DNA of 64,000 bases. Source: Thermodesulfovibrionales bacterium. Lineage in GTDB: Bacteria; Nitrospirota; Thermodesulfovibrionia; Thermodesulfovibrionales; SM23-35. A program made the translations under genes and the position numbers. The stretch spans positions 31,543 through 95,542 of the forward strand of contig CAVQRT010000006.1 in NCBI GenBank assembly GCA_963715195.1. Reading direction: 5' to 3'. Positions 7,741 to 54,662 of this stretch are shown one piece after another. Each line of letters starts with the position of its first letter. Positions within the stretch are counted from its first letter, which is position 1. Below the pieces are notes generated by a model. That model did no database searches. It saw only the letters and a list, made by a program, of their open reading frames with translations, and was not told where the DNA came from.

Positions 7741-8700
7741 ATGGACATAAAGTCATATCTTGAAGAAAAACGCGGATTCATTAATGTGTATCTGAAAGCG
7801 TATTTTGCATCAACCATGTTACCTGACGCGCTTTATAAGTCGATAACATATTCCCTCTTTGCCGGAGGCAAGAGGATACGGCCGATTCTTGCTCTCGCCT
7901 CTTATGAAGCATGCGACGGACATGCACAGGACATCCTGCCGCAGGCTGCGGCCCTTGAACTTATTCATACCTATTCCCTTATCCATGACGACCTCCCTTC
8001 AATGGATGACGATGACCTGCGGCGTGGCCAGCCGACAAACCACAAGGTCTTTGGTGAGGCAATCGCCATTCTTTCAGGTGATGCACTCCTGACGGAGGCC
8101 TTTTTTATGATGTCGAATATGCAGTCTCACGATGCACGATCCACAATGCACGATACCGGTGAGGAATATCATAATCATCGTGAACATTCACCAAAATATT
8201 CCTCTCCTATAACCTGTCGCCTTTTATTAAGAGCTCTGAGTGAAGTTGCTTTTGCATCAGGTATTCGCGGCATGGTTGGGGGGCAGGCGCAGGATATCCT
8301 CGCAGAAAATTCTGAACCGGACAAGGAAACCCTCGATTTTATCCATCTGCACAAAACGGCGGCACTTATTGCTGCTTCTGTGCGTATCGGACCGATTCTC
8401 GCTGACAGCGGCACGGGGAGGCTTAACGCATTGACACGATACGGCGAAAGCATCGGGCTGGCCTTTCAGATCGTTGATGACCTGCTGGATGTCGAGGGTA
8501 CAACGCGGGAACTCGGGAAACCTGTCGGCTCAGACCGTAAAAAAAGAAAATTGACTTACCCGTCTCTTTACGGTATAGATGTCGCCAGGAAGAAGGCAGA
8601 AGATTGTCTGACGGAGGCACTGCATGCACTGAAGGAATTTTCATCGTCAGCGGATCCCCTGAGAGAGATTGCACATTATCTTGTCCTGAGGAGGCACTAA
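7741..8700 (+). CDS. ispA: Farnesyl/geranylgeranyl diphosphate synthase, with an internal insertion
   Basis: GGKRIRP, HDDLPSMDDDDLRRG (FARM), FQIVDDLLD (SARM); ispA-dxs-tlyA synteny. Confidence 0.93.
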   Translation: MDIKSYLEEKRGFINVYLKAYFASTMLPDALYKSITYSLFAGGKRIRPILALASYEACDGHAQDILPQAAALELIHTYSLIHDDLPSMDDDDLRRGQPTNHKVFGEAIAILSGDALLTEAFFMMSNMQSHDARSTMHDTGEEYHNHREHSPKYSSPITCRLLLRALSEVAFASGIRGMVGGQAQDILAENSEPDKETLDFIHLHKTAALIAASVRIGPILADSGTGRLNALTRYGESIGLAFQIVDDLLDVEGTTRELGKPVGSDRKKRKLTYPSLYGIDVARKKAEDCLTEALHALKEFSSSADPLREIAHYLVLRRH

Positions 8701-10583
8701 TGCATCTGGAGCAGATCACATCGCCGGAAGATATCAAGAGACTTTCCGTAAGGGAATTGAGACGACTTGCGCGGGAGATAAAGAATACGATCATAGAGCG
8801 TGTCTCCCTGAACGGCGGTCATCTGGCTTCAAACCTTGGTGTGATAGAACTGACCCTGGCACTTCATTATGTCTTTGATTCCCCTGACGATAAAATCATC
8901 TGGGATGTAGGACATCAGGCATATCCCCATAAGCTCTTGACCGGCCGGTACAGCCGTTTTTCGAGCATCAGGAAATATCGTGGCCTTTCCGGTTTTCCCA
9001 AGAGAAACGAAAGCGAACATGATCCGTTTGGAACCGGGCACAGTTCAACGTCGATATCTGCAGCACTGGGAATTCTTGAAGGCAGGGATAAGAACAATGA
9101 ACAGTTCAAGGTCATCGCCGTCATCGGCGACGGAGCAATGACAGGTGGCCTTGCTTTTGAGGGATTGAACAACGCAGGCCATGTCGGGAAGGATCTGATC
9201 GTAATTCTCAATGACAACGAAATGTCCATCTCGAAGAATGTCGGAGCGCTCCCTGCATATCTTAACAGGATGCTTACGGGTGATTTGTATCAGAAGATCA
9301 AGAAAGAGACGAAGTCGCGTCTTGAGAGTATTCCCAAGGTGGGTGGGAGAGCGGCGAAGTTGGCACAGAAGACGGAAGAAATGTTCAAGAGACTGTTTCT
9401 TCCCGGAATCATCTTTGAAGAACTGGGGTTTACCTATGTCGGTCCCGTTGACGGACATGATGTCGAACTGTTGATCAGAACATTGAAGCGCGTTCAAAAT
9501 GAATCGACACCGACGCTTGTGCACGTTATAACGAAAAAGGGCCGTGGGTACGAATTTTCCGAGAAATACCCTTCCCTCTACCACGGGGTTGGGCCGTTCA
9601 AACTCGAAACAGGGTCGCCGGTTCGAGCAAACCGCCTCACCTACAGTGAAATATTCGGGAATATCCTCACGGAGTTGGCAGAGCGTGATCCGAAAATTAT
9701 TGCGATTACCGCGGCCATGAAAGAAGGCACAGGTCTTGAACTATTTGCGAAAAGACATCCCGACCGGTTCTACGATGTCGGAATAGCCGAGCAGCATGCG
9801 GTCACTTTTGCCGCTGGTCTTGCAACGCAGGGGCAGAAACCTTTTGTTGCGATATATTCGACATTTCTCCAGAGAGCGTACGATCAGATTATTCATGACG
9901 TCTGTCTTCAGAATCTTCCGGTTATTTTCGCAATTGACAGGAGCGGGATTGTCGGGGAAGACGGGCCGACTCACCACGGCACATTCGATATCTCCTATCT
10001 GCGGCATATCCCGAACATTACCGTTATGGAACCGAAGAACGAAACCGAACTTGCAGCGATGATGGAACTGGCAGTCTCCTGTAAAGGCCCTGTTGCCATC
10101 CGTTACCCAAGGGGCACTGCAGAGTCTCTTCCTCAACATGCTCCGGCTCAGTGCCCGTTCAGGATCGGGGAAGCAGAGATTCTGAAGGAAGGAAAGGATG
10201 TTGCTCTCATTGCATTGGGGAGGACAGTATACGCAGCCCGGCGTGTTTCGGAGAAACTCGAAAAAGACGGTATTTCCGCAATGGTCATCAATGCACGTTT
10301 TGTAAAGCCTCTCGACCATACCCTGCTTTCTTCTGTTGTTTCCCTGGTTCCCCGGATAGTCACGATAGAAGAAAATGCCCTTCAGGGCGGATTCGGAAGC
10401 GCAATTCTCGAATTCCTGAATGAAATAGAAGCATCCCACATTCGGGTCAGACGTGTCGGCATACCGGATGTGTTTGTTGAGCAGGGTAATCAAAACGAAT
10501 TGCGACGGCAATACGGACTAGATGATGAAGGGATCTACCTTGCAGTCCATTCTTTCCTGACGGAACCGACCTATACCTATTGA
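8700..10583 (+). CDS. dxs: 1-deoxy-D-xylulose-5-phosphate synthase
   Basis: GGHLASNLG, WDVGHQAYPHK, GDGAMTGG, DVGIAEQHA, GEDGPTHHG; TAATG overlap with ispA stop. Confidence 0.97.
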   Translation: MHLEQITSPEDIKRLSVRELRRLAREIKNTIIERVSLNGGHLASNLGVIELTLALHYVFDSPDDKIIWDVGHQAYPHKLLTGRYSRFSSIRKYRGLSGFPKRNESEHDPFGTGHSSTSISAALGILEGRDKNNEQFKVIAVIGDGAMTGGLAFEGLNNAGHVGKDLIVILNDNEMSISKNVGALPAYLNRMLTGDLYQKIKKETKSRLESIPKVGGRAAKLAQKTEEMFKRLFLPGIIFEELGFTYVGPVDGHDVELLIRTLKRVQNESTPTLVHVITKKGRGYEFSEKYPSLYHGVGPFKLETGSPVRANRLTYSEIFGNILTELAERDPKIIAITAAMKEGTGLELFAKRHPDRFYDVGIAEQHAVTFAAGLATQGQKPFVAIYSTFLQRAYDQIIHDVCLQNLPVIFAIDRSGIVGEDGPTHHGTFDISYLRHIPNITVMEPKNETELAAMMELAVSCKGPVAIRYPRGTAESLPQHAPAQCPFRIGEAEILKEGKDVALIALGRTVYAARRVSEKLEKDGISAMVINARFVKPLDHTLLSSVVSLVPRIVTIEENALQGGFGSAILEFLNEIEASHIRVRRVGIPDVFVEQGNQNELRRQYGLDDEGIYLAVHSFLTEPTYTY

Positions 10584-27907: not shown

Positions 27908-27923
27908 ATGCTGATTAGATAAT

Positions 27924-28022: not shown

Positions 28023-28046
28023 AGTATTGAAACCACGTTCATTATG

Positions 28047-28080
28047 AAATAAAAGGGGCAGAGAAATATCTTCCTGCCCC
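28047..28080 (-). terminator. Rho-independent terminator of the IPTL-CTERM gene
   Basis: GGGGCAG...CTGCCCC stem followed on the minus strand by TTTTATTT. Confidence 0.7.
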
Positions 28081-28103
28081 CAAAACAAATTCTGAATGAT
28101 TAA

Positions 28104-31100
28104 TTAATTCCTGACACGTCTCCTTAGAAAATAGAGAGCAGCCAAGCCCTGCAGTAATAAGAGTATTATCATTCCCCATTCATTCATCGTTGGTACTGCA
28201 GCAGCACCACGAGATCTCCTCCATACGGTCGGGTCTCCAGGAAGGAGAGGTACCGGGATCATCCGTGCATGACGTATCTCCGCCCGGAATCTGAGCACAA
28301 CCCTGGTTTTCTACCCTCGTCACCGAGGTGCTCATCGTAGTTCTGAATGTGATGACTACTTCATTATTTGCCTGGGTTTCATTTAGCGCTCCAGGGTCTG
28401 CGGCGACTGTTCCTTCCCATATAATTCTGTTGTTCCCGCTATCAAAGGTACAGGATGACGTTGATGAAGCGCCCCTTGGGTCACATACTAAGCTTCCACG
28501 ACATAGCTCGTATTGTCGGGGATGTCATCGGTAATCATCACACCGACTGCATTAGCATTGCCGTTATTGATCCATACCATCCTCCACACCAGTTCAGGAT
28601 ACCCATCGGCGTTGACGGTCTTTGACTCCTAGGTGGATCAAAGAGACGAGGGTTCGCCAGCTGTAACAGTCTCGGTGTCGGTCGGAGAGGTTACCACGCC
28701 GTTGGTAGCAGAGGCAATGTTTGTTACCGAACCGGCATCCAGATCAGCCTGCGTGATGGTGTAGCTCGATGTGCAGGTGATTGATGCACCGGGGGCAAGA
28801 TTCGGAGTCACAGGACAGCTTTCGTTAGTTGTCTTGTTGTCATTTACCGTAAAGGGCCCACTCAGGGTGATATTACCACTGTTGGTGACAAGATAGCTGT
28901 AACTAATCAAGGTACCCACTGTGCTGTAGGTGGTCGGTGAAGCAGACTTAACGATCGTAAGAGCCGGTGATTGAACTGCAGTAACGGTCTCGGTGTCGGT
29001 CGGAGAGGTCACTGCGCCATTGGTTGCAGAAGCAATGTTGGTTACCGAACCGGTATTCAGATCAGCTTGGGTGATAGTATAGCTCGATGTGCAGGTGATG
29101 GATGCACCGGGGGCAAGAGATGCGTTGGAGGACAGCTTTCGTTGGTTGTCTTGTTGTCACTTACCGAGAACGGACCGCTCAGGGTGACATTGCCACTATT
29201 AGTCACGATATAGCTGTAATTGATCACCGTTCCTACTGCGCTGTAGGTCGTCGGCGAGGCTGACTTGGCAATGCTAAGTGCAGGGTTCGGCTTGATAACT
29301 GTCACACTGTCCGTGTTTGATGTCACACCATCTGCAGATGCAGAAGCAGTATTTGTTACAAAACCATCTGTCACATCCTGTGCCTGCACAGTATAAGTAG
29401 CCGAACAAGAAATGCTCTCGCCAGGGTCCAGATAATTGTCCAAATCGCCTACTGTGTTTACGTCCGGGCAGGTTTCATCAGCAGATTTATCGTCTGATAC
29501 TGTAAGAGGCCCGAGCAGCGGATACCCGCCATTGTTTTCAACAACATAATTGTAGGTCAATAATTCACCAACAGCATTAAATTCGGTCGGATCGGCGCTT
29601 TTATCTAATGATAGGGATTTTGTTCCATACCTTGCCGATGAAGTAGACCGGGTTTGTGGATGCGCTGTCTGGCAGTTCCGTCGAAGTATTCATAAATGGG
29701 TTCGGTGTTGGAATCGAAGTTACTGACACAGGCCCGACAATACAAGCTGGCTGATGCATCTATTGCAAGTGAAGAGGGCAGGAGAACAGCACGGGGTTGA
29801 CGTCCGGATCAGTAGACGCTTATACTGCTTAGCGCTGTTTCACCGTCGTTTGAGACCGTAAATCTGTAATATATATCTCCGAGGCAGGCTTACACCAACA
29901 AATTTAAACCAGTTTGTGCCGTCAGTAGAAATTTGTTTATTTAACCCAAGGAGTGGTTGAGGATTGCTGACAACGAGAGTTGCAGTTGCTGCACTGCCGT
30001 CTCCGCCTTCCGAGGATGTAACAGCACTGAGGTTGTATTCTCCTATGAACCGACAGCTGAACCGGTTACTGTGACATTAAAGGTACACGAGGTATTTGCT
30101 GCAAGCGACCCACCTGAAAAAGAGATTGTACTTGGTGCTGTTGTTGTTAGTGACCCACCACAGGTCGCTGTTGGTCCACTATTTGCGACAGTCAGACCTG
30201 CCGGCAACGTATCTGTGAAACCGATACCACTCAGTGATATTGTTTGATTGGGATTGGTAATCGAAAACGTCAACGTTGAAGTCTGGCCGACAAGAATCGA
30301 TGCCGGGGAGAAAGATTTTGCGAGGTCAGGAGGTGCGATCACCGTCAAAGAATCAGTGGCATATCCGTTCGAGCTGTTATTGTTACCGCTCTCATTAGAG
30401 GAAATAAACCCACTGACGTTCTCGTATATACCTTCGATCGCTCCTGTCACCGTTATTTGGGTAAGCAACTGGCTCCGGCAGCGAGAGATCCGTCTGTTAG
30501 TGAAATTGTTCTTGTCGCGGCGGTTGTAGTCAGTGTACCTCCACACACAGGTGAAACAGTGGAGTCCGAAATTGACAGACCTGCGGCAAGAACATCGGTG
30601 AAAGCAATGCCGGTCAAAGCCTTGTTCCCGGGTTGAGTGTTACTGATGGTAAAAGAGAGCGTTGAATCTGAACCCTTTATAATCGGATTAGGAGAGAAGG
30701 ATTTAATAATAGTCGGCGGTGGAGCAGGTATCGCACATCCCGTAAATGTAATTACGTCTAATTCAAGCCTGCACCGCTATTGTCATTCTTAGCGCCCGTA
30801 GCGGCAATCCGGAAAGTCGTTGTGCCTGTTGTGCTTGTCAATCCGGTAAAATCGATGCTCTCGGTGTCCAATCAGTGACAGCCGGCGGAGTTAGCGTTCC
30901 CGCAGGCAGCGTTACAAACCCCGATCCGTTGTCATACGAAACCGTCATAGTCGTGGGGCCGTTGGCAGGATCTGGCATTCTTCAGTTGAAAATCCATCCG
31001 AACATCGGTGTATGCTCGGGTGTCAACGGCAAATTGCACATAATTGCCTGTTTTGTAACCATAAGGTCAGCCAGGAAGCAGTGTCATTTGATCCAATATT

Positions 31101-32692
31101 ATCGATTGATGTATCTCGCGGGAAATTGTGCTGAAGCGGAGGCAGTGAAACCGGTATTATTTGTTGTAGGACTTCCTGCCCCTCCGGTTCCTGTATCCGG
31201 CGGCGTTTGTAGCTCCGACGGGTACAGTCCAAATCACTAGTGTTTGACCCGGCGCACAGGCCGGAGCTGAGGAAGCTGTGAGCGTATCGCTCCCGGTATT
31301 GCCTGTATCCACTGATGTATTAATAAAAAGATTCCCGGTTGTATTGGGATAGGTTCCCTCGGGTGCCGTTACAGTCAGCGAGATTGTGCAAATGCTATTC
31401 GGAGCCAGCGTACCATTCGAAAAAGAAACCGATGTCTCTCCTCCGGTTGGTGCAGGTGAAAATGTTCCTGCACCGCAGCTGTTATAGGAAACTCCTGGCG
31501 TGCTATCAACCGCTAAACCGGCAGGGAAGGCGTCAATAAAATTGACACCGGCAATCGTTTCAGAAGTCGGGTTGTTAAGCTTAAAGGTCATGGTTGAAGT
31601 CCCACCCGGGGAAATTGCTTTCGGGCTGAATGATTTGCCGATTGTCACCGACGATGGCCCCAGGATATTTATAATGCGAGCGCCAACCCCGTAGTCAGCG
31701 TTGTAGTGGAAACTGCTTCCCGAGAAGTCATAGAGCAGGCTATTGAGGGTTTGGCTGGTGCCTGCACCGCTGAGTATTTTGACTATGTAAGTGGTGACAA
31801 CATTGCTGCCGCCCGCTTTGCCGGTAAGAGGATCGACGCCGACACACGAGCGATAGTTCGGGCTGTCGGGATCGTTCTCCCAAAGGCATGCATCGGCATA
31901 CAACTTGTCATTGGGATTTGAAACATAGCCGGAGCTGTCCGCAGAGTAGGTTGTGCTCACAGAAAGAATCTGAAATATCGTATTGGGAAAATTGATAAAG
32001 GCTTCAAACTGTTCATATCCCTGGGTTGCAGTGCCACCGTAAAGTTTGATGGTATACGTATTGCCGACGATCAGTGTCATGGAACCGCCGGCCGGGACAT
32101 GACACTCCATTGAGCTGTATGTCGGATACTGAGTTGCGGTTCTGAGATATCAGGTGTTCTACGTACAACTCACGCGGCTGGGGAGAGGATCCCGTTGCGC
32201 CGGACACCGAGTCGGTGGCAGTGATATGGTAGCGACGGGTGTTGTCAAAAGCAGCTGCAACTTTTGTAACTTCAACCTCAAAATACGCATCGGAACAGCT
32301 ACTGGCCGCAAGAGAGCCGATGGTAATTGATGATAGTGAGCCAGCACGCAGATTAATGTAATCGTCAGCGTTGACATCACCAACAAACACGCCTTGTCCA
32401 TCATCCCAAAGAAAAGCGGCAGTTACATTGTTGGCATCCGTAGTTCCTGTGTTACAAACCCGTGCACCGACCGGGAAACGATAAGGACCAGTTGCCGGGC
32501 TGTTGCTGTCAAGTCCTATGATATTCCAGGTGATTGGCCTGATTTCAAGGACCGGATCAGCAATAGCCGAAGATGTTAAGGTAGATAGAAAGACCAGGAC
32601 CAGAAGACGGATTGTGATGAAATCTCTTACAGCAGAAAGCCTTGTTGCATCTCTGAAGAATCTTTCTGCGATATTTCACTGTCTAAACTCAT
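28104..32692 (-). pseudogene. Large Ig-like-repeat (DUF11/DUF7507-like) surface protein with IPTL-CTERM signal, multiply frameshifted
   Basis: AAGGAGG RBS + ATG 32692; signal peptide; ITWNIIGLDSN domain; KSFSP and KSASP..YxVTNSGN repeats; tail VPTMNEWG-TM-RRR; homology continues across about ten or more frame changes. Confidence 0.8.
28663..29290. repeat. Two tandem coding repeats of about 318 bp (Ig-like domain duplication)
   Basis: GTAAC(A/G)GTCTCGGTGTCGGTCGGAGAGG starts at 28663 and 28981, with continued high similarity. Confidence 0.85.
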
Positions 32693-32919
32693 TAGTTTCC
32701 TCCTTAAGATGCCTGTTTCTTCTCAGAACTATGTATATGATATTTGAATGGATATTATACATAAGAATGTTAAGTATAACAATATGCAAGTGCATTCTGG
32801 CATAAGGGAAGTGTGATTTCCGTTTCAGTATCGAGCGAAAATAGTTCTTCCCGGGAGCTGTCTTTCAACCGGTATTGACAGCTTATCTTTCAATTATTTT
32901 TTTGAATGTCGTTAGCGGA

Positions 32920-45628: not shown

Positions 45629-47764
45629 TTTCTTTTTTCCGGTATCAAGGATTCGCCGGACCGTTGCCAGGAGCTCCGTCTGATCAAAGGGCTTTTTCAC
45701 AAAGGCATCAACTGCTCCACCATCCCGGATGGCAATATCGCTGAATCCGGAGATGGCAAGAATCTTGATCTCCGGGTTGATGTTTTTCAAGATCCTGATC
45801 AGATCATTTCCTTCAACGAGCGGCATCACGATGTCGGTTATCACGAGTTTAATTTTTGTGAGATTAGCCTTGAACACATCGATAGCATTCAGGGCATTGT
45901 TGACCGGCATGACATGGTATCCATGGTTTTCAAGGAGATCTGATAGTACATTCAGGACATCGCTGTCATCGTCGACGATCAGGATACTTTCATCCCCCTC
46001 GATGATTGTCATCCGCGGTTTAACCGGTGCCTGACCGGTTCTCTCGGAAAGCGGGAAATAGATTTCGAATGTTGTGCCTTTCATGAGTTCACTGCTGACG
46101 GAGATATACCCTTTATGGTCCTTCACAATGCCGTATACCGTAGCGAGACCCAGACCAGTCCCTTTCCCTTTTTCTTTCGTCGTGAAGAACGGATCAAAAA
46201 TCTTGCTGATGATATCCGGTGAAATACCGGTACCGGTATCAGAAAACGTGAGAATGACGTATCTCCCCGGCTGAATATACAATGGGATCTTCGTCCGTTC
46301 TTCTCCGATATCTGTCAGACGAGTTGTGATGGTAACATGGCCCCCGTCAGGCATGGCATCCTTGGCGTTAATCATAAGATTCATCATGATCTGTTCGATC
46401 TGATTGGGATCACCTTCAATGATGGGTGTATGTTCGGAAAAGTTGACCTTCAGGCCTATCTTCTTATTCAGCACCCCCTCAAAGATTTTCAGGGAATCAT
46501 TGATCACATCATGGAGATTCAGGGGAAGCACTTCATGCGAGTCCCGCCGGGCAAAACTCAGGAGCTTGGTGACCATCACTCCTGCTTTGCGGGCAGAGCT
46601 CTCGATGTTCCGGACCCTCTGCCGGGATACATCATCAAGATTGCTGAACTCAAGGAGAAGTTCAGCGTACCCTAAAATGGCTGTCAGGATATTATTGAAA
46701 TTATGGGCGATGCCCCCTGCAAGAACCCCGATTGACTCCATTTTTGTTGAGTGCAACAATTGTTCCTGAAACTGTTTCTTTTCCGTAATATCCCGGTAAA
46801 AAGACTGAATATATTGTTCACCTTCGATGTCAATGGAATTGCTGCTCACCTCGAGGAGCACCTTGCTGCCGTCCTTTTTGTAATGTTCAGTTTCATAAAT
46901 CAGGGACTCCCCTTCAAGGATCCTTGCCAATCTCAGCTGGAAATGCTCCCTGTCGTACTTTGCGTCAAGAAGTTCCATGCCCACGCCTATCAAGGCATCT
47001 TTCTCAAATCCGTGCATGTCGCATGCTCTCTGGTTTACATTGATGATTCTTCCATTTTTGTCCAGCACGATAATTCCATCTGTTGCATAATTAAAAATGG
47101 CTTTATACCATTTTTCTGATATTGACAGCTCTTTGGTGCGCTCCTGAACCAGATGCTCAAGATTGGTTGAATAGATTTTCAGCTGCTCTTTTTCAGCAGA
47201 AAGATCATATTCAAGAGCAAGTTTGTTCATGAGAAGTTTTTGATTGATATATTTCCATATGAATCCGATAATGAATATAGAAATGAGGAATAAGTTATTG
47301 TTGACAAAAATCTCGAGGTCGGTAATGGTATCGATGAAAAAAATAGGGATGAGATAAATGCTGTAAATGATGGATGCCAGCAGGAAGGTGACCGGTAAGG
47401 AGACCGGCAGCATACCGATAATAAACACGAAGGTTACGATCATCCCGGCATAATAGGTCGATGCATGCCCTCCTGTGGCGAGGATCATCAATTCAACCAT
47501 GAAAGAAACGATAACTGTCGCTGTAATCGTAATGCCAAGCTGGAGATTCTTATTTAGGTAACGGTTATTCAGAATGAAGAGCCCGATAAACAATCCTATG
47601 CTCACAATTCTCATGATAAAAAATGCAGAAAAATGCTCTGGAGTTACGAGGAAATCCAAAAGGATGAGCAGACCGATGACGAATATCCCTGAAGGAAGGA
47701 CGACGGAACCCCAGGAACGGAGTAGTTTTAAAATCTCATGTTCGATATAACTCTTCTTGTCCAT
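45614..47764 (-). CDS. Hybrid sensor kinase (about 6 TM-PAS-HisKA-HATPase-REC)
   Basis: LAGGIAHNFNN, NAKDAM, DTGTG, PFFTTK, GTGLGL, VDDD..DIVMP..KKPF. Confidence 0.92.
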   Translation of the reverse strand: MDKKSYIEHEILKLLRSWGSVVLPSGIFVIGLLILLDFLVTPEHFSAFFIMRIVSIGLFIGLFILNNRYLNKNLQLGITITATVIVSFMVELMILATGGHASTYYAGMIVTFVFIIGMLPVSLPVTFLLASIIYSIYLIPIFFIDTITDLEIFVNNNLFLISIFIIGFIWKYINQKLLMNKLALEYDLSAEKEQLKIYSTNLEHLVQERTKELSISEKWYKAIFNYATDGIIVLDKNGRIINVNQRACDMHGFEKDALIGVGMELLDAKYDREHFQLRLARILEGESLIYETEHYKKDGSKVLLEVSSNSIDIEGEQYIQSFYRDITEKKQFQEQLLHSTKMESIGVLAGGIAHNFNNILTAILGYAELLLEFSNLDDVSRQRVRNIESSARKAGVMVTKLLSFARRDSHEVLPLNLHDVINDSLKIFEGVLNKKIGLKVNFSEHTPIIEGDPNQIEQIMMNLMINAKDAMPDGGHVTITTRLTDIGEERTKIPLYIQPGRYVILTFSDTGTGISPDIISKIFDPFFTTKEKGKGTGLGLATVYGIVKDHKGYISVSSELMKGTTFEIYFPLSERTGQAPVKPRMTIIEGDESILIVDDDSDVLNVLSDLLENHGYHVMPVNNALNAIDVFKANLTKIKLVITDIVMPLVEGNDLIRILKNINPEIKILAISGFSDIAIRDGGAVDAFVKKPFDQTELLATVRRILDTGKKKLPLY

Positions 47765-47917
47765 GGAATTACAGAAAAATGTCCTGAAATCAGAAAAGGG
47801 CCTGTCTTCCCCCGTGTTAAAGGCCTGGCGTTATAATACCTCAGACAAAGCAGAGATGTAAATCGTTTAATATATACTAAAGTAATTCTTTATATAATAT
47901 AAATAACAGACTGATAA

Positions 47918-48496
47918 TTATATATAATTTAAGGAACAAGCAAGAACTCCCTGTGCTCTTGGCGCAGGGAATTCTCCGGTAAGCCGGAGAATGATAATTG
48001 ATTTATAGTCTTTGTTTTTTCTGATTATCTTCGGCCTGTCCCTTTTTGCATTCACAATACAGAAGAAACCAAACGGTTGATTTGAAGTATTCTTCAACTG
48101 ATGAGGTTCACTTGGTTTAATATAGACCGTATCAAGGAATCCGATTTTGTATCTTTTCTTGCCTGCAATACAAATGCCCTGTCCCCTGATACCGATGACC
48201 ACGTGTTCGTGCTTGTGCATTTCGAAACTGCTGAATCCATCAGGAGCTATTTCAAAATATCTCAGATGGAATTTTGCTGATTCTCCATGATTGCCGATCA
48301 GGGTCTGCCTGATAATATCAGACCATTCGTCCCCTCCTGGTTTGTATTTTTCGGTAAGGATGCCCTGCCAGGTGAAGTTCCCTCTGTATTTAAAAAACCT
48401 CGTCGTGTTGAGAAATGATTCCTTGATACGCTTCTCAGGACTTCTTTTCCAATCGCAGGGAAAAGCGTTTTTTTTATTCTTTGCCGTGATGTTCAT
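47918..48496 (-). CDS. Cupin, methylthio-xylulose-5-phosphate methylsulfurylase-like
   Basis: FTWQG..KYK, IRQTL, LRYFEIAPDGFSSFEMHKHEH, EPHQ, PFGFFCIV..RDRP; start uncertain. Confidence 0.7.
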   Translation of the reverse strand: MNITAKNKKNAFPCDWKRSPEKRIKESFLNTTRFFKYRGNFTWQGILTEKYKPGGDEWSDIIRQTLIGNHGESAKFHLRYFEIAPDGFSSFEMHKHEHVVIGIRGQGICIAGKKRYKIGFLDTVYIKPSEPHQLKNTSNQPFGFFCIVNAKRDRPKIIRKNKDYKSIIILRLTGEFPAPRAQGVLACSLNYI

Positions 48497-49517
48497 CAAA
48501 TACAATGATACACTTTAGAGAATTTTTTGCCTCGGCAGTCAGCTTGAACGCCTTTGCCGTGTGCTCAATCGGGAATCGGTGCGTAACAAGCCTTTGAGCG
48601 CTTATAATCCGTTCCCTGATGATTCCAAGGGCCTCTCTGGTATCCCCTGGTCCGCAGGAATAGCTGGTGATGATATTGATGTCCCTGAAATACAAATCAT
48701 TCGGATCACAGACAAGCTGCTCTCCTGGTTTGGACGGAGTGAAAAAAAGGACGCTCCCTCCGGCTCCGGCAGCCTCAATACCCTGTTTCATTGCCTGAAC
48801 ACTGTTTGGTCCGACGACAACGATATCTGCCATTGCGCCGTGCGTCAGCTCTTTCAAGGAATCGAAAAGATGATCCTTCGATACATCAATGACCTCGTCC
48901 GCACCGCATTCTTTTGCCTTCCTGAGCCGGTATGGGACCATGTCGGCACCGATGATCCTTGCTGTCCCGTATTTTTTTGCCAGGAGAATATGCATCAGGC
49001 CCATTGTCCCGAGTCCGATAACAAGAACCGTTTCTCCGCCCTTGATATGGACTCTCTTCAATGCCTTTATGACACAAGCTGCAGGCTCTATCAGTGTTGC
49101 ATCTTCATAACTCACATTTTCAGGAATCCGTAAGGTATCGTTTTCGAGATTTATCTGGGGTACCAGAATAAATTCGGAGATCCCTCCGGGGACGAGTTTC
49201 GTATTTTGCCAGGTTCTGCACTGAACATAGTTGCCTCTGATGCAATACCTGCAAGCAAGGCACGGCGCGTGATGGTGCACAAAAACACTGTCTCCTCGCC
49301 TGAAAGAGGTAACTTCGGAGCCGACCTCGACAATCTTACCTGCAGGCTCATGGCCGATGACAAGAGGCGCTTTTTTTTCGATATACCATGGCATCACGTC
49401 GCCGGAGCATATACCGCATGTTTTCGTCCTGATCAAGGCATCATGAGGACCAATTTCGGGGATAGGAACATCCTCGATCCGGATATCATGAAAACTGTAG
49501 AGTTTCGCGACTTTCAA
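48474..49517 (-). CDS. Zn-dependent medium-chain dehydrogenase (polyol-dehydrogenase-like)
   Basis: CGICSGD, GHE, CxxCxxC..C, IEP, GLGTMG; TTG start. Confidence 0.88.
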   Translation of the reverse strand: MKVAKLYSFHDIRIEDVPIPEIGPHDALIRTKTCGICSGDVMPWYIEKKAPLVIGHEPAGKIVEVGSEVTSFRRGDSVFVHHHAPCLACRYCIRGNYVQCRTWQNTKLVPGGISEFILVPQINLENDTLRIPENVSYEDATLIEPAACVIKALKRVHIKGGETVLVIGLGTMGLMHILLAKKYGTARIIGADMVPYRLRKAKECGADEVIDVSKDHLFDSLKELTHGAMADIVVVGPNSVQAMKQGIEAAGAGGSVLFFTPSKPGEQLVCDPNDLYFRDINIITSYSCGPGDTREALGIIRERIISAQRLVTHRFPIEHTAKAFKLTAEAKNSLKCIIVFDEHHGKE

Positions 49518-49606
49518 GGTGATGGTAAGGTAATATCTATATCTTTCGTGAGTCTCGGTCCACCATAAAGAATAACTGCCTGACCAGCGATCACCATGTA
49601 GGGAAT
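49514..49606 (-). pseudogene. N-terminal fragment of a nucleotidyltransferase (AbiEii/DUF6036-like)
   Basis: Translates IPYMVIAGQAVILYGGPRLTKDIDITL, matching the G(G)xA...PRxTxDxD motif; no start codon, stops at the dehydrogenase start. Confidence 0.55.
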
Positions 49607-49781
49607 CTGAATGCTACTTCATTTTCGGCCTATTTTTGTTCGAAGCCATAGTAATTTTATCACAAAAGAGAGGATGATTGAATAACAAAATCTAGGTCAT
49701 TTGAAATAGTAATTCACATTTGCTGGAGATACCTGTACAACGTGGTGTAATTTTTAGTTTATAGAGAAGGGGACAAATGTA

Positions 49782-49955
49782 ATGTCACAAGGAACTGTGA
49801 AGTGGTTTAACAAGAGTAAAGGTTTCGGATTCATTACTGCTGAAGATGGCACTGATGTTTTTGTCCACCATACGTCCATCCAGGGTAGTGGTTTTACTGG
49901 AACCTCAAAATCAAAATTTAAAATAGTTATTGACATTTCTTTTCCTATTCATTGA
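49782..49955 (+). pseudogene. Truncated cold-shock protein
   Basis: [38 protein letters not shown] (RNP1, RNP2), then unrelated sequence after codon 38. Confidence 0.85.
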
Positions 49956-49978
49956 AAATAACAGATGTATTGATATAG

Positions 49979-50047
49979 ATAGTGGTGGCTCTTAATTTGT
50001 ACCTGTCAAGCCAAAAGTCACAGGTTCAGTTTCTACCCACCCCGCCA
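49979..50047 (+). pseudogene. Decayed tRNA-Asp(GTC)
   Basis: CT-GTC-AA anticodon loop, GGTTC T-loop, 3' CCACCCCGCCA; stems mismatched, D-arm partly deleted. Confidence 0.6.
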
Positions 50048-50095
50048 TTAATCCCTCATTTCAATTCAATAAATTCTGTGGAGGTTACGATAAAG

Positions 50096-50476
50096 ATGGC
50101 TATTAAGCAAAAAATTGCATTATTTTTTCTCTGTAAGTTTGTCGTTATTGGGATGCTATTTCTCACATTAAGATATAGTGCTGAAATTGATATGGACTCA
50201 CCTGAAAGGACAGGTATTTTTACCGCATATACTGCAAGTGTTTTTCAAACTGACAGTACCCCAATGATTACTGCAAGTAACATTAACGTGAGAAAGGGCA
50301 TTATTGCCAATAATTGCCTTCCATTTGGAACAAAGATTAAGGTGAATAATAAAATCTTTGAAATTCAGGATAGGATGAACGAGAGATACGGATGCGATAA
50401 TTTCGATATATATATGACGAAATATTATAAAGCTATAGATTTTGGGAGGCAAACATTAGAATACGAGATTATTTAA
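50096..50476 (+). CDS. 3D-domain (MltA-like/RlpA fold) exported protein
   Basis: TAYT..QTD..TAS, LPFGTKI, QDRM, FDIY, FGRQ; N-terminal TM; GGAGG RBS. Confidence 0.8.
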   Translation: MAIKQKIALFFLCKFVVIGMLFLTLRYSAEIDMDSPERTGIFTAYTASVFQTDSTPMITASNINVRKGIIANNCLPFGTKIKVNNKIFEIQDRMNERYGCDNFDIYMTKYYKAIDFGRQTLEYEII

Positions 50477-50603
50477 AAATATGGAACTAAGATGGAGAAT
50501 CTCTGATTTCCTAAACTTCTTCACGGTTTAATGAACGGATTCAGCGTGAGCTTCTTCACCTTTGGTGACTTTTTTTTCTTCTTCTATGGTTACCGGGATA
50601 TAT

Positions 50604-51701
50604 TCAGGGGATGACTGCATATTTTATTCCTCTGCCTTTCGACAGGTTTTCAAAAGCCTTCTGTATCTGCTTCAGTGAAAAATGTCCGGAAATGAGCCGT
50701 GAAGCATTGAACGTTCTTTTGCTGAGAAGCCCGCAGGCATTTTTTACATCAGCAGGAGTATAGTGGAAGACCCCTCTGAGGCTGATCTCATCATAGTGGA
50801 GTCTTTCAGCATCATAGGTAACGGTTGTCCCGGATTTACAGCCTCCAAAGAGGACGACCGTTCCGCCTCGTCTCACGTAATTTATGGAATTTTCCCAGAC
50901 ATCGGGCATACCGGTGCATTCGAAGACACAGTCGAATTTATCGAGAGTACTCTCCAATATAGGAACGCCCTCACCCTTATCCTCTCCCCCTGGGGGAGAG
51001 GGTAAGATTTTATCCCCTTCCGTCGATGGGAGGGAAGCAGGGGAGGGTGAATATTTGCTATCAGATAACGCCACAGAATCTGCGCCAAGTTTTTTTGCCG
51101 TCATTAATTTACTGTGATGTTTATCCATGACGGTAACCTGAACACCCCGATCCTTCAGGAGCAGGAGGTGAAGCAGCCCGATCGGACCTGAACCGATAAT
51201 GAGGGCATGGTCAGTTTTTCTCATATGAAGAAATTCCATGCCATGAACAACGCACGAGAGCGGCTCAAGAAGAGCTGCCTTTTCGAACGGCAGCTGTTTG
51301 GGTTTCCGGAACATATTCTGCTTTACAATATGCGGAGGCAGGAGAATATATTCTGCGAACGCACCGAGGATTTTTGTCCGCATGATGTTTTCACAGAGGT
51401 TGTAAAGCTTTTTTCTGCAGTATCCGCATGCTCGACAGGGAGCACTGTGCACCGCCATAATTTCATCGCCTTCCCTGAATCGTTTTACCCCTTTGCCGAC
51501 TGCTGCGACAATACCGGAAAATTCATGTCCGAAAGGACCCGGCATCGGAATGAAAGGATGACCCCGCCTGAATGCCTTCAGGTCAGTTCCGCAGGTGAGA
51601 GCTGCCTTGATCCTGATCAGGACTTCACCCCGTGAGGGTTTTGGAAGCGCTATCTCCAGCAGTTCGATAACGCCCGGTTTTACAAGGACCGCTGCACGCA
51701 T
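50604..51701 (-). CDS. Zn-dependent medium-chain dehydrogenase with in-frame repeat insertion
   Basis: TCGTD, GHEF, CRACGYC..C, LEPLSC, GSGPIG. Confidence 0.88.
   Translation of the reverse strand: MRAAVLVKPGVIELLEIALPKPSRGEVLIRIKAALTCGTDLKAFRRGHPFIPMPGPFGHEFSGIVAAVGKGVKRFREGDEIMAVHSAPCRACGYCRKKLYNLCENIMRTKILGAFAEYILLPPHIVKQNMFRKPKQLPFEKAALLEPLSCVVHGMEFLHMRKTDHALIIGSGPIGLLHLLLLKDRGVQVTVMDKHHSKLMTAKKLGADSVALSDSKYSPSPASLPSTEGDKILPSPPGGEDKGEGVPILESTLDKFDCVFECTGMPDVWENSINYVRRGGTVVLFGGCKSGTTVTYDAERLHYDEISLRGVFHYTPADVKNACGLLSKRTFNASRLISGHFSLKQIQKAFENLSKGRGIKYAVIP
50968..51050. repeat. CCCTCACCC..CCTCTCCC/GGGAGAGG-type palindromic element inside a CDS
   Basis: CCCTCACCCTTATCCTCTCCCCC-T-GGGGGAGAGG ... 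CCCTTCCGTCGATGGGAGGG ... GGGGAGGG. Confidence 0.8.
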
Positions 51702-51949
51702 CAGATCTCGAGTTTGCCTCCGATGATCTGACCGAGGACTGCAGCAAAAGCAAAAAATGGTATGTATTTCATTTCGATATGCGACAGGGTCCTTATGATA
51801 AAAATAACGGGAATCGGCATGTGTATATAAAGGAACCAGCGAAATGAATACCGTTTTGATTTTGCCCTTGCAAACCCGAAAGGGAGGTTAATCAGTAGGG
51901 TCAGGAAAAAGAGAAGAAGAATCGAGTAAAATTTACTCTGAAGATCCAT
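51701..51949 (-). CDS. Small membrane protein
   Basis: Three hydrophobic segments, NLPFG..WFLYIH.P; TGATG overlap with the dehydrogenase. Confidence 0.7.
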   Translation of the reverse strand: MDLQSKFYSILLLFFLTLLINLPFGFARAKSKRYSFRWFLYIHMPIPVIFIIRTLSHIEMKYIPFFAFAAVLGQIIGGKLEI

Positions 51950-52040
51950 GGTGAAAAATACCTGAAAGCACGCCATCAAGTCAAATTATTGCATGCTTTG
52001 ATGTTGCTATGATAGAACGATAACTAGGAAAGGATACTGA

Positions 52041-52262
52041 ATGGTTGGAAAATCTGAAGAGCAAACTAAACAAAAGATCAGGGAGATTCTGGAAGGTTTG
52101 GAGTGCATGCTGACTGCACATGACAGCTGTGCAGAACTGGCAGAGTACCGGGACAAAAAAGCAGTCATACACTGCGGCGGACCCTGTCTGAAATGCGACA
52201 ACAGGTGCATTGAGGGAGCGATAAGAGACCAATTACCCGACATTGAAGTAATTATTCAATAA
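52041..52262 (+). CDS. Divergent NifU-C/Nfu-like Cys-rich protein
   Basis: AAGGA RBS; GPCLKC and IE..I...LPD pattern of Nfu domains. Confidence 0.55.
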   Translation: MVGKSEEQTKQKIREILEGLECMLTAHDSCAELAEYRDKKAVIHCGGPCLKCDNRCIEGAIRDQLPDIEVIIQ

Positions 52263-52295
52263 ATGTAAGGTGCTATTTCCCAGGAAGGAAATACC

Positions 52296-54662
52296 TTACC
52301 GCATTGCGACAATGGTCACGCCTGCACCGCCTTCCTCATAAGTTCCCTTCCGGGAACTCTTTATCAGCGGGTGACCGTTCAGATGCTCATCAACTGCCTT
52401 TGAAAGAAGACCCTTCCCGATTCCATGAACAATAACAACTTGGGGCAGGTCTGAAAGTGAGGCGTCATTCAGAAAGCGCTCAAGACGTGAAAGCGCTTCA
52501 TCGACCCGCAGGCCGACAAGGGTTATTTTCAGAGAACCCGGTTCTTCAGTCTTGTCCTGCTTTGGCATGGTCGGAGAAGAAACCGGCGGCATGTCCTCCG
52601 GAAATGTTATGTCTGTCAGAGGTACTTCAATCTCCATATTCCTCGCCGAAACTTTAATGCGCCCGCTCTTTTTGATGATGTCGATGACCAGAGCATTGTA
52701 GCCGAGAGATCGTATGAAAACAGTATCCCCTTTCTTGATCTCGTCTGTTGATGGAGCCCTCATGTCTTTGACATCAAATTCCCTCAGCTTTCCGGTGACG
52801 ATCTCCCGGGATTCTTCAATGTTCCTGACGGCTTTCTGCCGTTCGCTCTTCTCTTTCTTTCTGAGCTCATCGAGAAAAATATTCATCTGGCGTTTTGTAG
52901 TGTCGATAATGCCTGATGCTTCACGATATGCATCTGCGAGTACTCTCCGTTTATTCTCATTTGCTTCTGCCAGCTTTTCGGTGAGGATATGATCCCTTTT
53001 CTCAAGGTCCGACTTCTGTTTCATGAGATCACGCAGTGCATTTTCATATTCCAGTCTCTTTGTGTTCAGATCAGAAATCATATGGTCAAGTTCAACCTTC
53101 ATACCGCCGAGCAAGTTTCTCGCATCGTGAATTACGGTGTCGGGGATACCGTATCTTTGCGCTATATCGAGGGCATGTGACTGTCCGGGTTCGCCGACTC
53201 TTAGCCGGTACAGAGGCGTGAAGGTCTTTTGATCAAATTCCATGGATGCATTGAGCATGCCTTCTGTTCTGTGAACGAAGCCCTTGATATCGGATAAGTG
53301 GGTCGTTGCGAATACAAGAGCGCCGCTTCTTCGGATATGTTTCAGTATGGAGCAGGCAAGAGCGGCTCCTTCATCGGGATCGGTGCCGGTACCGAGTTCA
53401 TCGATCAGCACCACAGTGTCAGGTTTTCTGTTTTTCAGGATCTCGGAGATATTTGACATATGGGCGGAGAAGGTAGACAGATTGTTTTCGATGGACTGCT
53501 CATCACCAATATCAACAAGGAGATTTGATACGAGAGGGATAGCAGATGACGAAGCCGCAGGCACAGGCATCCCCGACAATGCCATTACAATGAGCAGCCC
53601 GATTGTTTTGATCGCAATGGTTTTTCCGCCGGCATTTGCCCCGGTGATGACCATAACTGTATGATCACCTCCGAGCTCTGTATCGAGAGGGACAACATGA
53701 CGGGATATGTCAGGCTTTCCGAGCGACAGGTGGAGAAGCGGGTGTCTTGCATGTGCCAAATGAATGTGGATTGATTCGGTGATTACCGGAGTTTCCATGC
53801 CGAGTTGATCAGCGAACCGCGCAATGCTGCTCAGGGTGTCGATGTAGACTACGGTCCTGTATTCGTGCACGCATTCGTCAATCACTTTCCGTATCATGGA
53901 ACAGATCGTGCGGAGGATGCGCAGCTCCTCAGCCTTCTGGTCTGCAATAAGATTCTCCAGCTCATTCGAGAGGTTTATGATGCTCAGGGGCTCAATGAAT
54001 GCGGTCTCACCTGATTTTGAGATATCGTGCACAACGCCGGGTACCATGCCTTTTGAGTCCATCCTCACAGGGATTACCCACCTGCCGGATCTCATCGTGA
54101 CGAAATCGTCCTGCAGGAAGGGGAAAAGCTTCTCGTCACGTGTGAACTCTTCGAGTCTCTTCCGGATCTTCGCTTCAAGTTTCCGAATCTGCGCCCGAAG
54201 GTCAGAAAGAAGGAGCGAAGCTGAATCGAGAACATTTCCTTCGGCGTCGATCGATTTCTGAAGTGTTTTGAGGATATCCGGAAAACCCGTCAGATTGCCT
54301 GCAAGGTGACTGAGCGACGGAATGTCAAATCTTTCTCGAATCGTCTGTCCGATGCCGGAGGCAATATTCAGAATGGGAATGAAATCGGCGAGTTCTATTG
54401 CCTCGAGGACTGCTCCCTCAGGACGTAACTTCATAAGGTGTTGAGTGATGTCGAAAAACGGATACAGCTGCAAAGGCGTGCCTTCATGCGACAGTCTCCG
54501 GATTTCAGCGATCAGACACAATCGTGTTTCGATATCGGCACGGACAGTCAGCGGAGCAATTTTGAGAATATACGCTGATGACGCCTGGCTATTGGATGCA
54601 TCAGCAATAAGGCCGAGTACTTTCGGAAATTCGAGTAAATCGAGAGTGGTTTTCGGGATCAT
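52296..54662 (-). CDS. mutS2: Endonuclease MutS2
   Basis: LEF, GANAGGKT, LSTFSAH, DELGTGTDP, TTH, Smr domain VHGIGKG..EGGAG. Confidence 0.95.
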   Translation of the reverse strand: MIPKTTLDLLEFPKVLGLIADASNSQASSAYILKIAPLTVRADIETRLCLIAEIRRLSHEGTPLQLYPFFDITQHLMKLRPEGAVLEAIELADFIPILNIASGIGQTIRERFDIPSLSHLAGNLTGFPDILKTLQKSIDAEGNVLDSASLLLSDLRAQIRKLEAKIRKRLEEFTRDEKLFPFLQDDFVTMRSGRWVIPVRMDSKGMVPGVVHDISKSGETAFIEPLSIINLSNELENLIADQKAEELRILRTICSMIRKVIDECVHEYRTVVYIDTLSSIARFADQLGMETPVITESIHIHLAHARHPLLHLSLGKPDISRHVVPLDTELGGDHTVMVITGANAGGKTIAIKTIGLLIVMALSGMPVPAASSSAIPLVSNLLVDIGDEQSIENNLSTFSAHMSNISEILKNRKPDTVVLIDELGTGTDPDEGAALACSILKHIRRSGALVFATTHLSDIKGFVHRTEGMLNASMEFDQKTFTPLYRLRVGEPGQSHALDIAQRYGIPDTVIHDARNLLGGMKVELDHMISDLNTKRLEYENALRDLMKQKSDLEKRDHILTEKLAEANENKRRVLADAYREASGIIDTTKRQMNIFLDELRKKEKSERQKAVRNIEESREIVTGKLREFDVKDMRAPSTDEIKKGDTVFIRSLGYNALVIDIIKKSGRIKVSARNMEIEVPLTDITFPEDMPPVSSPTMPKQDKTEEPGSLKITLVGLRVDEALSRLERFLNDASLSDLPQVVIVHGIGKGLLSKAVDEHLNGHPLIKSSRKGTYEEGGAGVTIVAMR

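What the first reader, a model, noticed from the sequence alone, without database searches (positions are those of the whole stretch)
47918..51949. Cupin plus two polyol-type dehydrogenases: possible RLP-independent MTA-isoprenoid shunt
Seen: membrane protein, dehydrogenase, (islet), dehydrogenase and cupin are co-oriented with overlapping ends. By eye the cupin resembles the Rhodospirillum rubrum methylsulfurylase that converts 1-methylthio-xylulose-5-P to DXP; there a RuBisCO-like protein supplies that substrate from 5-methylthio-ribulose-1-P. Known: MDR-family arabitol-phosphate dehydrogenase oxidises D-arabitol-1-P to xylulose-5-P. Inference: C2 reduction to methylthio-arabitol-1-P and then C4 oxidation by the two dehydrogenases yields the xylulose stereochemistry, replacing the RLP; 5-deoxyribulose-1-P would give DXP directly. 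MTA-producing aminopropyltransferases are encoded in this window.
Basis: inference. Interest (0 to 1): 0.7.

Follow-up and report, generated by a model that had tools for sequence, protein, structure and literature searches.

The report
Dehydrogenase pair replacing RuBisCO-like isomerase
Two zinc dehydrogenase genes and a small cupin gene travel together in these bacteria, and the pair was never found together with the RuBisCO-like enzyme that normally feeds this cupin, so it likely forms an undescribed route from S-adenosylmethionine waste to the isoprenoid precursor DXP, possibly the only source of DXP in relatives where no DXP synthase gene is found.

Summary
The genes are as described. The cupin's best sequence and fold matches include R. 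rubrum methylsulfurylase Rru_A2000, and it groups with RLP-fused cupins. The genome has MtnP, MtnA and Dxr; no RLP or class II aldolase was found. In 231 genomes of the class, 152 have the cupin: 130 with dehydrogenase 1, 18 with a DeepYkr RLP, none with both. In 131 genomes of the phylum, 12 lack Dxs on two tests; all 12 carry both dehydrogenases and the cupin. A 2023 paper lists Thermodesulfovibrio yellowstonii as cupin+, RLP-, Dxs-, unexplained. So the pair likely replaces the RLP (about 0.7). I differ on order: dehydrogenase 2 is sister to a dehydrogenase lying beside the thiolase LsrF in 28 of 29 places, which suggests C4 oxidation first, through a 2,4-diketone. Against: no enzyme data; no mtnA/mtnP in 160 loci; no glutathione synthetase or MetY found; kin are not independent. 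This scan noted the same module before on other DNA (six notes). Not found in print in nine searches of the open-access library.

The parts
51701..51949 (-). Small membrane protein (82 aa from the ATG at 51949), no known family; likely a lineage-specific passenger of the operon
   Evidence: ORF; no Pfam family; Atlas clusters named hypothetical; in 44 of 80 related loci, usually just upstream of ADH1
50604..51701 (-). ADH1, Zn-dependent MDR dehydrogenase; predicted reductase of the keto group next to the phosphate
   Evidence: PF08240 + PF00107; catalytic Cys/His/Glu and four structural Cys invariant; own clade, support 100; found in 139 of 231 class genomes, in 0 of 21 that have a DeepYkr RLP
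50950..51050 (.). In-frame palindromic insert in ADH1 (about 27 aa longer than most orthologs)
   Evidence: Inverted repeat 50976-50990/50992-51006; 365 aa against a typical 338; weak matches elsewhere in the genome
49518..50603 (+). Islet between the dehydrogenases: truncated cold-shock gene copy (49782-49955) and an unnamed ORF (49982-50476); not part of the module
   Evidence: Translation; 49699-49896 is 75-86% identical to ten other places in the genome; no Pfam or NCBIfam family for the ORF; no Rfam match of note
48474..49517 (-). ADH2, Zn-dependent MDR dehydrogenase with an NAD-type Asp; predicted C4 dehydrogenase of 5-methylthio- or 5-deoxy-ribulose-1-phosphate
   Evidence: PF08240 + PF00107; Asp192 in 53 of 53; sister to the LsrF-linked dehydrogenase, support 94, about 40% identity; orthologs in 35 of 131 phylum genomes
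47918..48496 (-). Cupin of the 1-methylthio-xylulose-5-phosphate methylsulfurylase type
   Evidence: Rru_A2000 E 9.6e-19, about 40 of 124 aligned residues identical by eye; Foldseek rank 1 is 3jzv; 51% identical to the cupin domain fused to a DeepYkr RLP in G080; one clade with RLP-fused cupins, support 99
47933..48003 (.). Small repeated element that lengthens the cupin's C-terminal tail; absent from two strain contigs
   Evidence: Joints skipping 68-71 bp in runs X1 and X2; 15 blastn matches in the genome
13440..15170 (+). Two polyamine aminopropyltransferases (likely MTA producers); unlinked context
   Evidence: Both over the PRK00811 cut-off
8604..10583 (+). DXP synthase (Dxs): this genome keeps the canonical route as well
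   Evidence: TIGR00204 over cut-off at G000:C6:40251-42098

Best explanation
The two zinc dehydrogenases likely do the job of the RuBisCO-like isomerase: they would turn 5-methylthio-ribulose-1-phosphate, left over from S-adenosylmethionine use, into 1-methylthio-xylulose-5-phosphate, which the neighbouring cupin likely converts to the isoprenoid precursor DXP. Shown here: the genes, their families, their linkage, presence of MtnP, MtnA and Dxr, failure to find an RLP, and mutual exclusion with the DeepYkr RLP across genomes. Inferred: MtnP and MtnA make the ribulose-1-phosphate analogue; ADH2 oxidises C4 with NAD+ to a 2,4-diketone (the methylthio analogue of the LsrF substrate); ADH1 reduces the keto group beside the phosphate, which flips the chain head to tail and gives D-xylulose stereochemistry; the cupin removes the methylthio group with a thiol other than glutathione. 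5-Deoxyribulose-1-phosphate from radical-SAM waste would give DXP with the two dehydrogenases alone. Confidence is for the net role; within it I put oxidation-first at about 0.55, reduction-first at 0.3 and the order ADH2, cupin, ADH1 at 0.15.
For: (1) Cupin placement. (2) Own genome: MtnP over the TIGR01694 cut-off, two mtnA, Dxr, no PF00016, no PF00596, no lsrG/lsrB/lsrR match. (3) 231 class genomes: cupin 152, ADH1 139, DeepYkr RLP 21; cupin+ADH1 130, cupin+RLP 18, ADH1+RLP 0. RLP genomes fall in five families, three of which also hold ADH1 genera, so the swap is not a single event; in 13 the RLP is fused to the cupin, and in 5 of 6 loci fetched from the others a divergent cupin follows it. 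(4) 131 phylum genomes: all three genes in 34; 0 of 35 pair genomes have a DeepYkr-type RLP; their 7 RuBisCO-family hits score 32-35% identity, and the two typed were form III RuBisCO and a Photo/NonPhoto-like RLP. (5) Dxs not found on two tests in 12 of 131, all 12 with the full trio; four of these 12 were tested further: Dxr in 4 of 4, HMG-CoA reductase in 0 of 4, two being single-contig genomes. (6) PMC10663253 Table S2: T. yellowstonii and three Chloracidobacterium are cupin+, RLP-, Dxs-, other MEP genes +, MVA-. (7) Order: ADH2's sister clade lies beside LsrF in 28 of 29 places (compared by eye; tree); in family f18, 4 of 5 genomes have that pair and mtnA but no RLP, aldolase or cupin was found. 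(8) The trio or parts of it recur in metagenome loci of 34-73% G+C: ADH2 76, ADH1 37, cupin 31 of 80.
Against: No enzyme, metabolite or expression data; the single RNA run covers only scraps. No mtnA, mtnP, RLP or LsrF in 80 genome loci or 80 metagenome loci. mtnA is near universal (128 of 131) so it does not discriminate; family f21 (10 genomes) has mtnA and none of RLP, cupin, pair or LsrF, and 67 of 231 class genomes show none of cupin, ADH1 or RLP. The trio is within 5 kb in only 5 of 34 genomes (ADH2-cupin 18 of 34, ADH1-ADH2 13 of 35). The Dxs loss is mostly one genus (10 of 12); the other two are fragmented assemblies; the first Dxs search gave two false negatives (G013, G099). That genus also has a class II aldolase in 9 of 10 genomes that could drain the same substrate. 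No glutathione synthetase and no MetY over cut-off, so the known thiol partner and the methionine-closing step are not seen. LsrF follows the RLP-cupin fusion in f7, and in f15 the LsrF pair coexists with a DeepYkr RLP, so the sister enzyme's substrate is not fixed. Near relatives on plasmids sit in sugar-catabolic clusters with FGGY kinases and class II aldolases. The NAD/NADP split I looked for is not clean (ADH1: Gly 66%, Asp 26%).
Confidence: 0.7

Rival explanations
1. Same net route but reduction first: ADH1 reduces C2 to 5-methylthio-D-arabitol-1-phosphate and ADH2 oxidises C4.
For: All the profiling evidence fits equally. A stable polyol-phosphate intermediate has precedent: arabitol-phosphate dehydrogenase links arabitol-1-P and xylulose-5-P (PMC6685057, passages); E. 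coli SorE/SorD are annotated as sorbose-1-P and sorbitol-6-P dehydrogenases.
Against: Neither enzyme is close to GatD (28-29%) or SorE (23%); ADH2 is about 40% identical and sister to the LsrF-linked enzyme, whose product must be a diketone if LsrF keeps its named reaction. The E. avium enzyme itself was not in the tree.
Confidence: 0.2
2. Order ADH2, cupin, ADH1: the cupin strips the methylthio group from the diketone and ADH1 reduces the resulting 3-hydroxy-2,4-pentanedione-5-phosphate to DXP.
For: ADH2-cupin linkage (18 of 34) is tighter than ADH1-ADH2 (13 of 35); it would give one shared intermediate for LsrF and ADH1.
Against: The cupin lies in one clade with RLP-fused cupins that receive methylthio-xylulose-5-P, which argues for an unchanged substrate.
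Confidence: 0.1
3. The dehydrogenases serve an unrelated sugar or polyol redox route, the cupin is a paralog with another substrate, and the pattern reflects shared ancestry.
For: No mtnA/mtnP linkage in 160 loci; relatives at 36-41% identity lie in sugar-catabolic clusters; sources name ADH2 relatives L-iditol 2-dehydrogenase; genomes are kin.
Against: No kinase, PTS or transporter is conserved beside the trio; it does not explain 0 of 21 overlap with the DeepYkr RLP in several families, nor that every Dxs-less genome has the trio.
Confidence: 0.2
4. The module detoxifies SAM waste but its product is not used as DXP; Dxs-less relatives get DXP from a promiscuous transketolase-like enzyme.
For: Weak transketolase-like matches exist in the Dxs-less genomes (E about 1e-8 to 1e-12); PMC10663253 names promiscuity as a possible cause (Discussion); this genome keeps Dxs.
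Against: The only characterised product of this cupin type is DXP (PMC5893883, PMC4334135, passages); Dxs loss is confined to trio-bearing genomes in the sample.
Confidence: 0.1

Closest known systems
MTA-isoprenoid shunt of Rhodospirillum rubrum and Rhodopseudomonas palustris (MtnP, MtnA, DeepYkr RLP, cupin Rru_A2000/RPA2170; PMC5893883, PMC4334135, passages read)
   Same: Cupin of the same sequence and fold type; MtnP, MtnA and Dxr present; predicted end product DXP.
   Different: No RLP found; two MDR dehydrogenases occupy its place in the profile; no glutathione synthetase or MetY found; genes not clustered with mtnP/mtnA.
D-arabitol-phosphate dehydrogenase (Enterococcus avium, Bacillus methanolicus AtlD; PMC6685057 passages) and E. 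coli GatD
   Same: Zn-MDR acting on a phosphorylated pentitol/pentulose; gives the right stereochemical precedent.
   Different: GatD is only 28-29% identical; no PTS genes nearby; APDH itself was not compared.
L-sorbose route SorE + SorD
   Same: A ketose-1-phosphate is turned head to tail by two redox steps (mechanism recalled; gene names).
   Different: SorE is about 23% identical and far out in the tree; SorD is an SDR; the intermediate is a polyol phosphate.
LsrG/LsrF breakdown of phospho-AI-2 (PMC8016206 passage; NCBIfam NF006081)
   Same: The predicted diketone intermediate is the LsrF substrate or its methylthio analogue; ADH2's sister enzyme sits beside an LsrF over the family cut-off.
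   Different: No lsrG, lsrB or lsrR match in this genome; the trio itself has no LsrF beside it.
DHAP shunt / 5-deoxyribose salvage (DrdK, DrdI, DrdA; PMC6079011 passages)
   Same: Same predicted entry metabolites from MtnP/MtnA.
   Different: Uses a class II aldolase, not found in this genome; yields DHAP plus an aldehyde.

Membership tests
MTA-isoprenoid shunt (R. rubrum type) | MTA phosphorylase MtnP | tested here: met
   G000:C3 ORF, TIGR01694 305 bits over cut-off 274.85
MTA-isoprenoid shunt (R. rubrum type) | Methylthioribose-1-P isomerase MtnA | tested here: met
   Two TIGR00512 matches over cut-off; one may be contamination (6.6%)
MTA-isoprenoid shunt (R. rubrum type) | DeepYkr-clade RLP 1,3-isomerase | tested here: not met
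   No PF00016 match and no match to a DeepYkr query; genome 97.8% complete. So not a member of the canonical shunt.
MTA-isoprenoid shunt (R. rubrum type) | Glutathione as thiol partner of the cupin | tested here: not met
   No PF02955 match; other thiols not tested
MTA-isoprenoid shunt (R. rubrum type) | O-acetylhomoserine sulfhydrylase to recapture methanethiol | tested here: inconclusive
   One strong PF01053 protein, below the TIGR01326 cut-off and below every listed cut-off
MTA-isoprenoid shunt (R. rubrum type) | Dxr to consume DXP | tested here: met
   TIGR00243 over cut-off
MTXu-5P methylsulfurylase cupin (Rru_A2000 type) | Closest solved relatives are 3jzv/3kgz/3ibm by sequence and fold | tested here: met
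MTXu-5P methylsulfurylase cupin (Rru_A2000 type) | Shared motifs W-x-YK, RYFE, E-x-H-x-H-x-H, GF-x-C-x-VN-x-x-RD-x-P (taken from the alignment, not from a paper) | tested here: met
   a divergent RLP-adjacent subtype lacks YK and RDxP
MTXu-5P methylsulfurylase cupin (Rru_A2000 type) | Thiol-dependent conversion of MTXu-5P to DXP | not testable with these tools
   Needs an assay; the KOfam profile used in PMC10663253 is not held here
Zn-dependent MDR dehydrogenases | GroES-like + Rossmann domains, catalytic and structural Zn ligands, GxGxxG | tested here: met
   for both enzymes
Threonine, galactitol-1-P, sorbose-1-P or idonate dehydrogenase | Score over the family cut-off or grouping with the E. 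coli enzyme | tested here: not met
   Tdh 163/141 bits against 458; GatD 111 against 550; 23-29% identity, separate clades
Arabitol-phosphate dehydrogenase (APDH) | Grouping with the E. avium enzyme and a PTS context | not tested
   No APDH sequence was at hand; no PTS genes in the conserved neighbourhood

The most novel reading that the evidence does not exclude
A redox relay through a 2,4-diketone phosphate is a widespread, undescribed hub of SAM-waste salvage in anaerobes: one dehydrogenase family oxidises 5-deoxy- or 5-methylthio-ribulose-1-phosphate, and the diketone is either reduced to DXP (this module) or split by LsrF to DHAP and acetyl-CoA. In the Dxs-less genus this would be the main way into the MEP pathway, so that all isoprenoids derive from the ribose of SAM, filling the gap left open for Thermodesulfovibrio yellowstonii and perhaps Chloracidobacterium.
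Probability: 0.35. Interest if true: 0.85.

Novelty: new variant of a known kind. Interest (0 to 1): 0.72.

Why it matters
It offers named candidate enzymes for an open question in print: how bacteria with a full MEP pathway but no Dxs and no RLP make DXP (PMC10663253). It would be a non-homologous replacement of a RuBisCO-like isomerase by two NAD(P) enzymes, a Dxs bypass of use to terpenoid engineering, and a possible methanethiol source in sediment anaerobes. The test is cheap: three small soluble enzymes and known substrates.

Tried and rejected
Viral contigs: no relative of ADH2. Plasmids: no close ortholog of either dehydrogenase (best 36% and 41%) and two cupin hits not followed up. Rfam: nothing of note in 47700-52300; my guess of a tRNA remnant in the islet found no support. 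NAD/NADP division of labour: not clean, dropped. First Dxs count of 14 was corrected to 12 after G013 showed a full and G099 a partial Dxs. Four cupin hits (G089, G105, G117, G129) are a divergent subtype. Long ADH2 relatives (P0179, P0207, P0223, P0245) showed no fusion to MtnA, cupin or LsrF. Cluster look-up gave almost no organism names, so the range outside Nitrospirota rests only on unnamed metagenome loci. RNA run X20 covers 13 of 30 bins with short contigs and shows nothing about transcription. The MDR tree is the quick method (careful search unfinished), with 20 of 87 ADH1, 20 of 52 ADH2, 21 of 21 sister-clade rows and long reference branches. No complex prediction was run. The islet ORF looks like a 3D-domain protein by eye only; untested. 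Warlick 2012, Erb 2012 and Marques 2014 were not held and were not read; their content comes from other papers' passages.

Full report
Observation. The four genes are on the minus strand as described: membrane protein (51701-51949), ADH1 (50604-51701), ADH2 (48474-49517) and cupin (47918-48496). The membrane gene and ADH1 overlap by TGATG, and ADH2 and the cupin by 23 nt; ADH1 and ADH2 are parted by a 1,086-bp islet with a truncated cold-shock gene copy and an unnamed ORF. Three DNA runs from three studies cover the stretch, islet included. Two small inserts are incidental: a palindrome inside ADH1 and a 68-71 bp repeat in the cupin's tail that two strain contigs lack. Relatives named by the tool are Nitrospirota, mostly Thermodesulfovibrionales.

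The proteins. ADH1 and ADH2 are Zn-dependent MDR dehydrogenases with all zinc ligands, about 30% identical to each other and 23-29% to E. coli GatD, Tdh, IdnD, YdjJ, YdjL and SorE, far below each named family cut-off. The cupin's three best PDB sequence matches are 3ibm, 3jzv (Rru_A2000, E 9.6e-19) and 3kgz; the predicted fold's best match is 3jzv (mean pLDDT 70, core above 90). It is 51% identical to the cupin domain fused to a DeepYkr RLP in G080, and pair-linked, RLP-fused and RLP-operon cupins form one clade with support 99 in a 30-row quick tree.

Own genome (G000, 97.8% complete, 6.6% contamination). Found: MtnP, mtnA twice, Dxr twice, Dxs in this window, two aminopropyltransferases. Not found: RuBisCO/RLP, class II aldolase, glutathione synthetase, a MetY over cut-off, lsrG/lsrB/lsrR. 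So the canonical shunt has a hole between MtnA and the cupin.

Linkage. Of 80 genome loci fetched with ADH1, 44 hold ADH1, ADH2 and cupin, 5 the pair only and 31 ADH1 alone, many of them short. Of 80 metagenome loci fetched with a diverse ADH2 alignment (G+C 34-73%), 76 are ADH2-type, 37 hold ADH1 and 31 the cupin, in several orders. In whole genomes the linkage is looser: of 34 with all three genes, ADH2-cupin are within 5 kb in 18 and all three in 5. No mtnA, mtnP, RLP or LsrF was seen in any of the 160 loci.

Profile. In 231 genomes of the class: cupin 152, ADH1 139, DeepYkr RLP 21; cupin+ADH1 130, cupin+RLP 18, ADH1+RLP 0; 4 cupin genomes showed neither (G022 has ADH1; the other three are 89-94% complete), 9 ADH1 genomes showed no cupin, and 67 showed none of the three. 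ADH2 was not searched in this set. The RLP genomes lie in five families; 13 are RLP-cupin fusions of one family, and 5 of 6 loci fetched from the others have a divergent cupin right behind the RLP. In 131 genomes of the phylum, 0 of 35 pair genomes have a DeepYkr-type RLP; 7 have other RuBisCO-family genes, of which the two typed were form III RuBisCO and a Photo/NonPhoto-like RLP. The two samples overlap, and kin are not independent, so I give no P value. mtnA is in 128 of 131 and does not discriminate; family f21 has it without any exit I looked for.

Dxs loss. TIGR00204 missed 14 of 131 genomes. A second test with PF13292 on all 14 found a full Dxs in G013 and a partial one in G099, leaving 12: all 10 of genus g6, G098 and G119. 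All 12 carry ADH1, ADH2 and the cupin and no DeepYkr RLP. Four of the 12 were tested further (with G013 as fifth): Dxr in all, HMG-CoA reductase in none; G053 and G077 are single contigs. PMC10663253 (passages, Discussion, supplement parts 1 and 34 and searched rows) lists T. yellowstonii and three Chloracidobacterium as cupin+, RLP-, Dxs-, rest of MEP+, MVA-, and leaves the mechanism open. I could not test those named genomes; two loci labelled Thermodesulfovibrio sp. (L038, L053) hold all three genes.

Order of steps. A second ADH2-like clade (38-43% identity) is in 29 places in the phylum sample, 28 of them next to an LsrF-family thiolase over its cut-off, including G000:C25. It is sister to ADH2 with support 94, together with one Marinovum plasmid enzyme from a sugar-catabolic cluster, and both keep the NAD-type Asp (53 of 53, 21 of 21). 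The family name gives LsrF's substrate as 3-hydroxy-5-phosphonooxypentane-2,4-dione, split to DHAP and acetyl-CoA (PMC8016206 passage). By structure, that compound is the C4-oxidation product of 5-deoxyribulose-1-P, and also of DXP. In family f18, 4 of 5 genomes have this pair and mtnA while no RLP, aldolase or cupin was found, which favours the ribulose-1-P analogue; f7 and f15, where LsrF goes with a DeepYkr RLP, leave it open. By inference ADH2 oxidises C4 first and ADH1 reduces the keto group beside the phosphate.

What is known. The shunt with RLP and cupin is described in R. rubrum and R. palustris (PMC5893883, PMC4334135, PMC6302742; passages). PMC6079011 (passages) and PMC10986504 (passages) cover the aldolase route and mention no such dehydrogenase pair in the passages seen. 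Nine searches returned no paper that, by listing or passage, describes a dehydrogenase pair replacing the RLP; most subscription journals and bioRxiv supplements are not covered, and Erb 2012, Warlick 2012 and Marques 2014 were not read. That the R. rubrum RLP may also act on 5-deoxyribulose-1-P is recalled, not checked. This scan noted the same module on six other genomes and the LsrF-dehydrogenase pair on six more; these notes are not independent evidence.

Verdict. Not a member of the canonical shunt (RLP not found), but it likely works like it, with two redox steps in place of the isomerase. Confidence 0.7 for the net role, about 0.4 for the exact order I favour. New variant of a known kind; interest 0.72, because it makes a published open question directly testable.

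Noticed in passing
G000:C25:42447-44526 (outside the window); L090, L112-L131: Zn-dehydrogenase beside an LsrF-family thiolase with no other lsr genes; adjacent in 28 of 29 places in 131 genomes; candidate oxidative exit from 5'-deoxyadenosine/MTA salvage to DHAP and acetyl-CoA.
   Followed up: partly
L085:963-8432, L150, L151: DeepYkr RLP fused to the cupin (526-528 aa) in 13 of 13 genomes of family f7; in L085 and L151 followed by LsrF and a RhaD-like aldolase/SDR fusion.
   Followed up: partly
L086:4712-6264, L239-L242, L244: A divergent 127-aa cupin subtype lacking the YK and RDxP motifs lies right behind DeepYkr RLP genes; possibly a second methylsulfurylase type. In L086 it is followed by hgcA (mercury methylation).
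   Followed up: partly
L087:4216-7996: G057 has RLP, an alpha/beta-hydrolase-like gene, cupin and O-acetylhomoserine sulfhydrylase in one run: a canonical-looking shunt operon.
   Followed up: partly
L088:3-5355: Form III RuBisCO with a kinase-like gene, transaldolase-like gene and split transketolase in a genus-g6 genome, about 11 kb from ADH2; neighbours named by eye.
   Followed up: no
window 47926-48003: Short repeated element with 15 matches in the genome, polymorphic among strains; here it extends the cupin's reading frame.
   Followed up: partly
window 50950-51050: Palindromic in-frame insert of about 27 codons in ADH1.
   Followed up: partly
window 49782-50476: Truncated cold-shock gene copy with its upstream region, and an ORF of no known family that looks like a 3D-domain protein by eye.
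   Followed up: partly
family f21 of the phylum sample (10 genomes): mtnA present but no RLP, cupin, dehydrogenase pair or LsrF found, and a class II aldolase in only 1 of 10: a further unknown exit may exist.
   Followed up: no
window 27900-32900: Several short minus-strand ORFs with repeated beta-rich surface-protein-like motifs, apparently pieces of one large broken gene next to exosortase-like genes (26815-27907); by eye only.
   Followed up: no
G000:C7/C17 and C14/C19: mtnA and dxr each occur twice, the mtnA copies in look-alike neighbourhoods; fits the 6.6% contamination figure.
   Followed up: no
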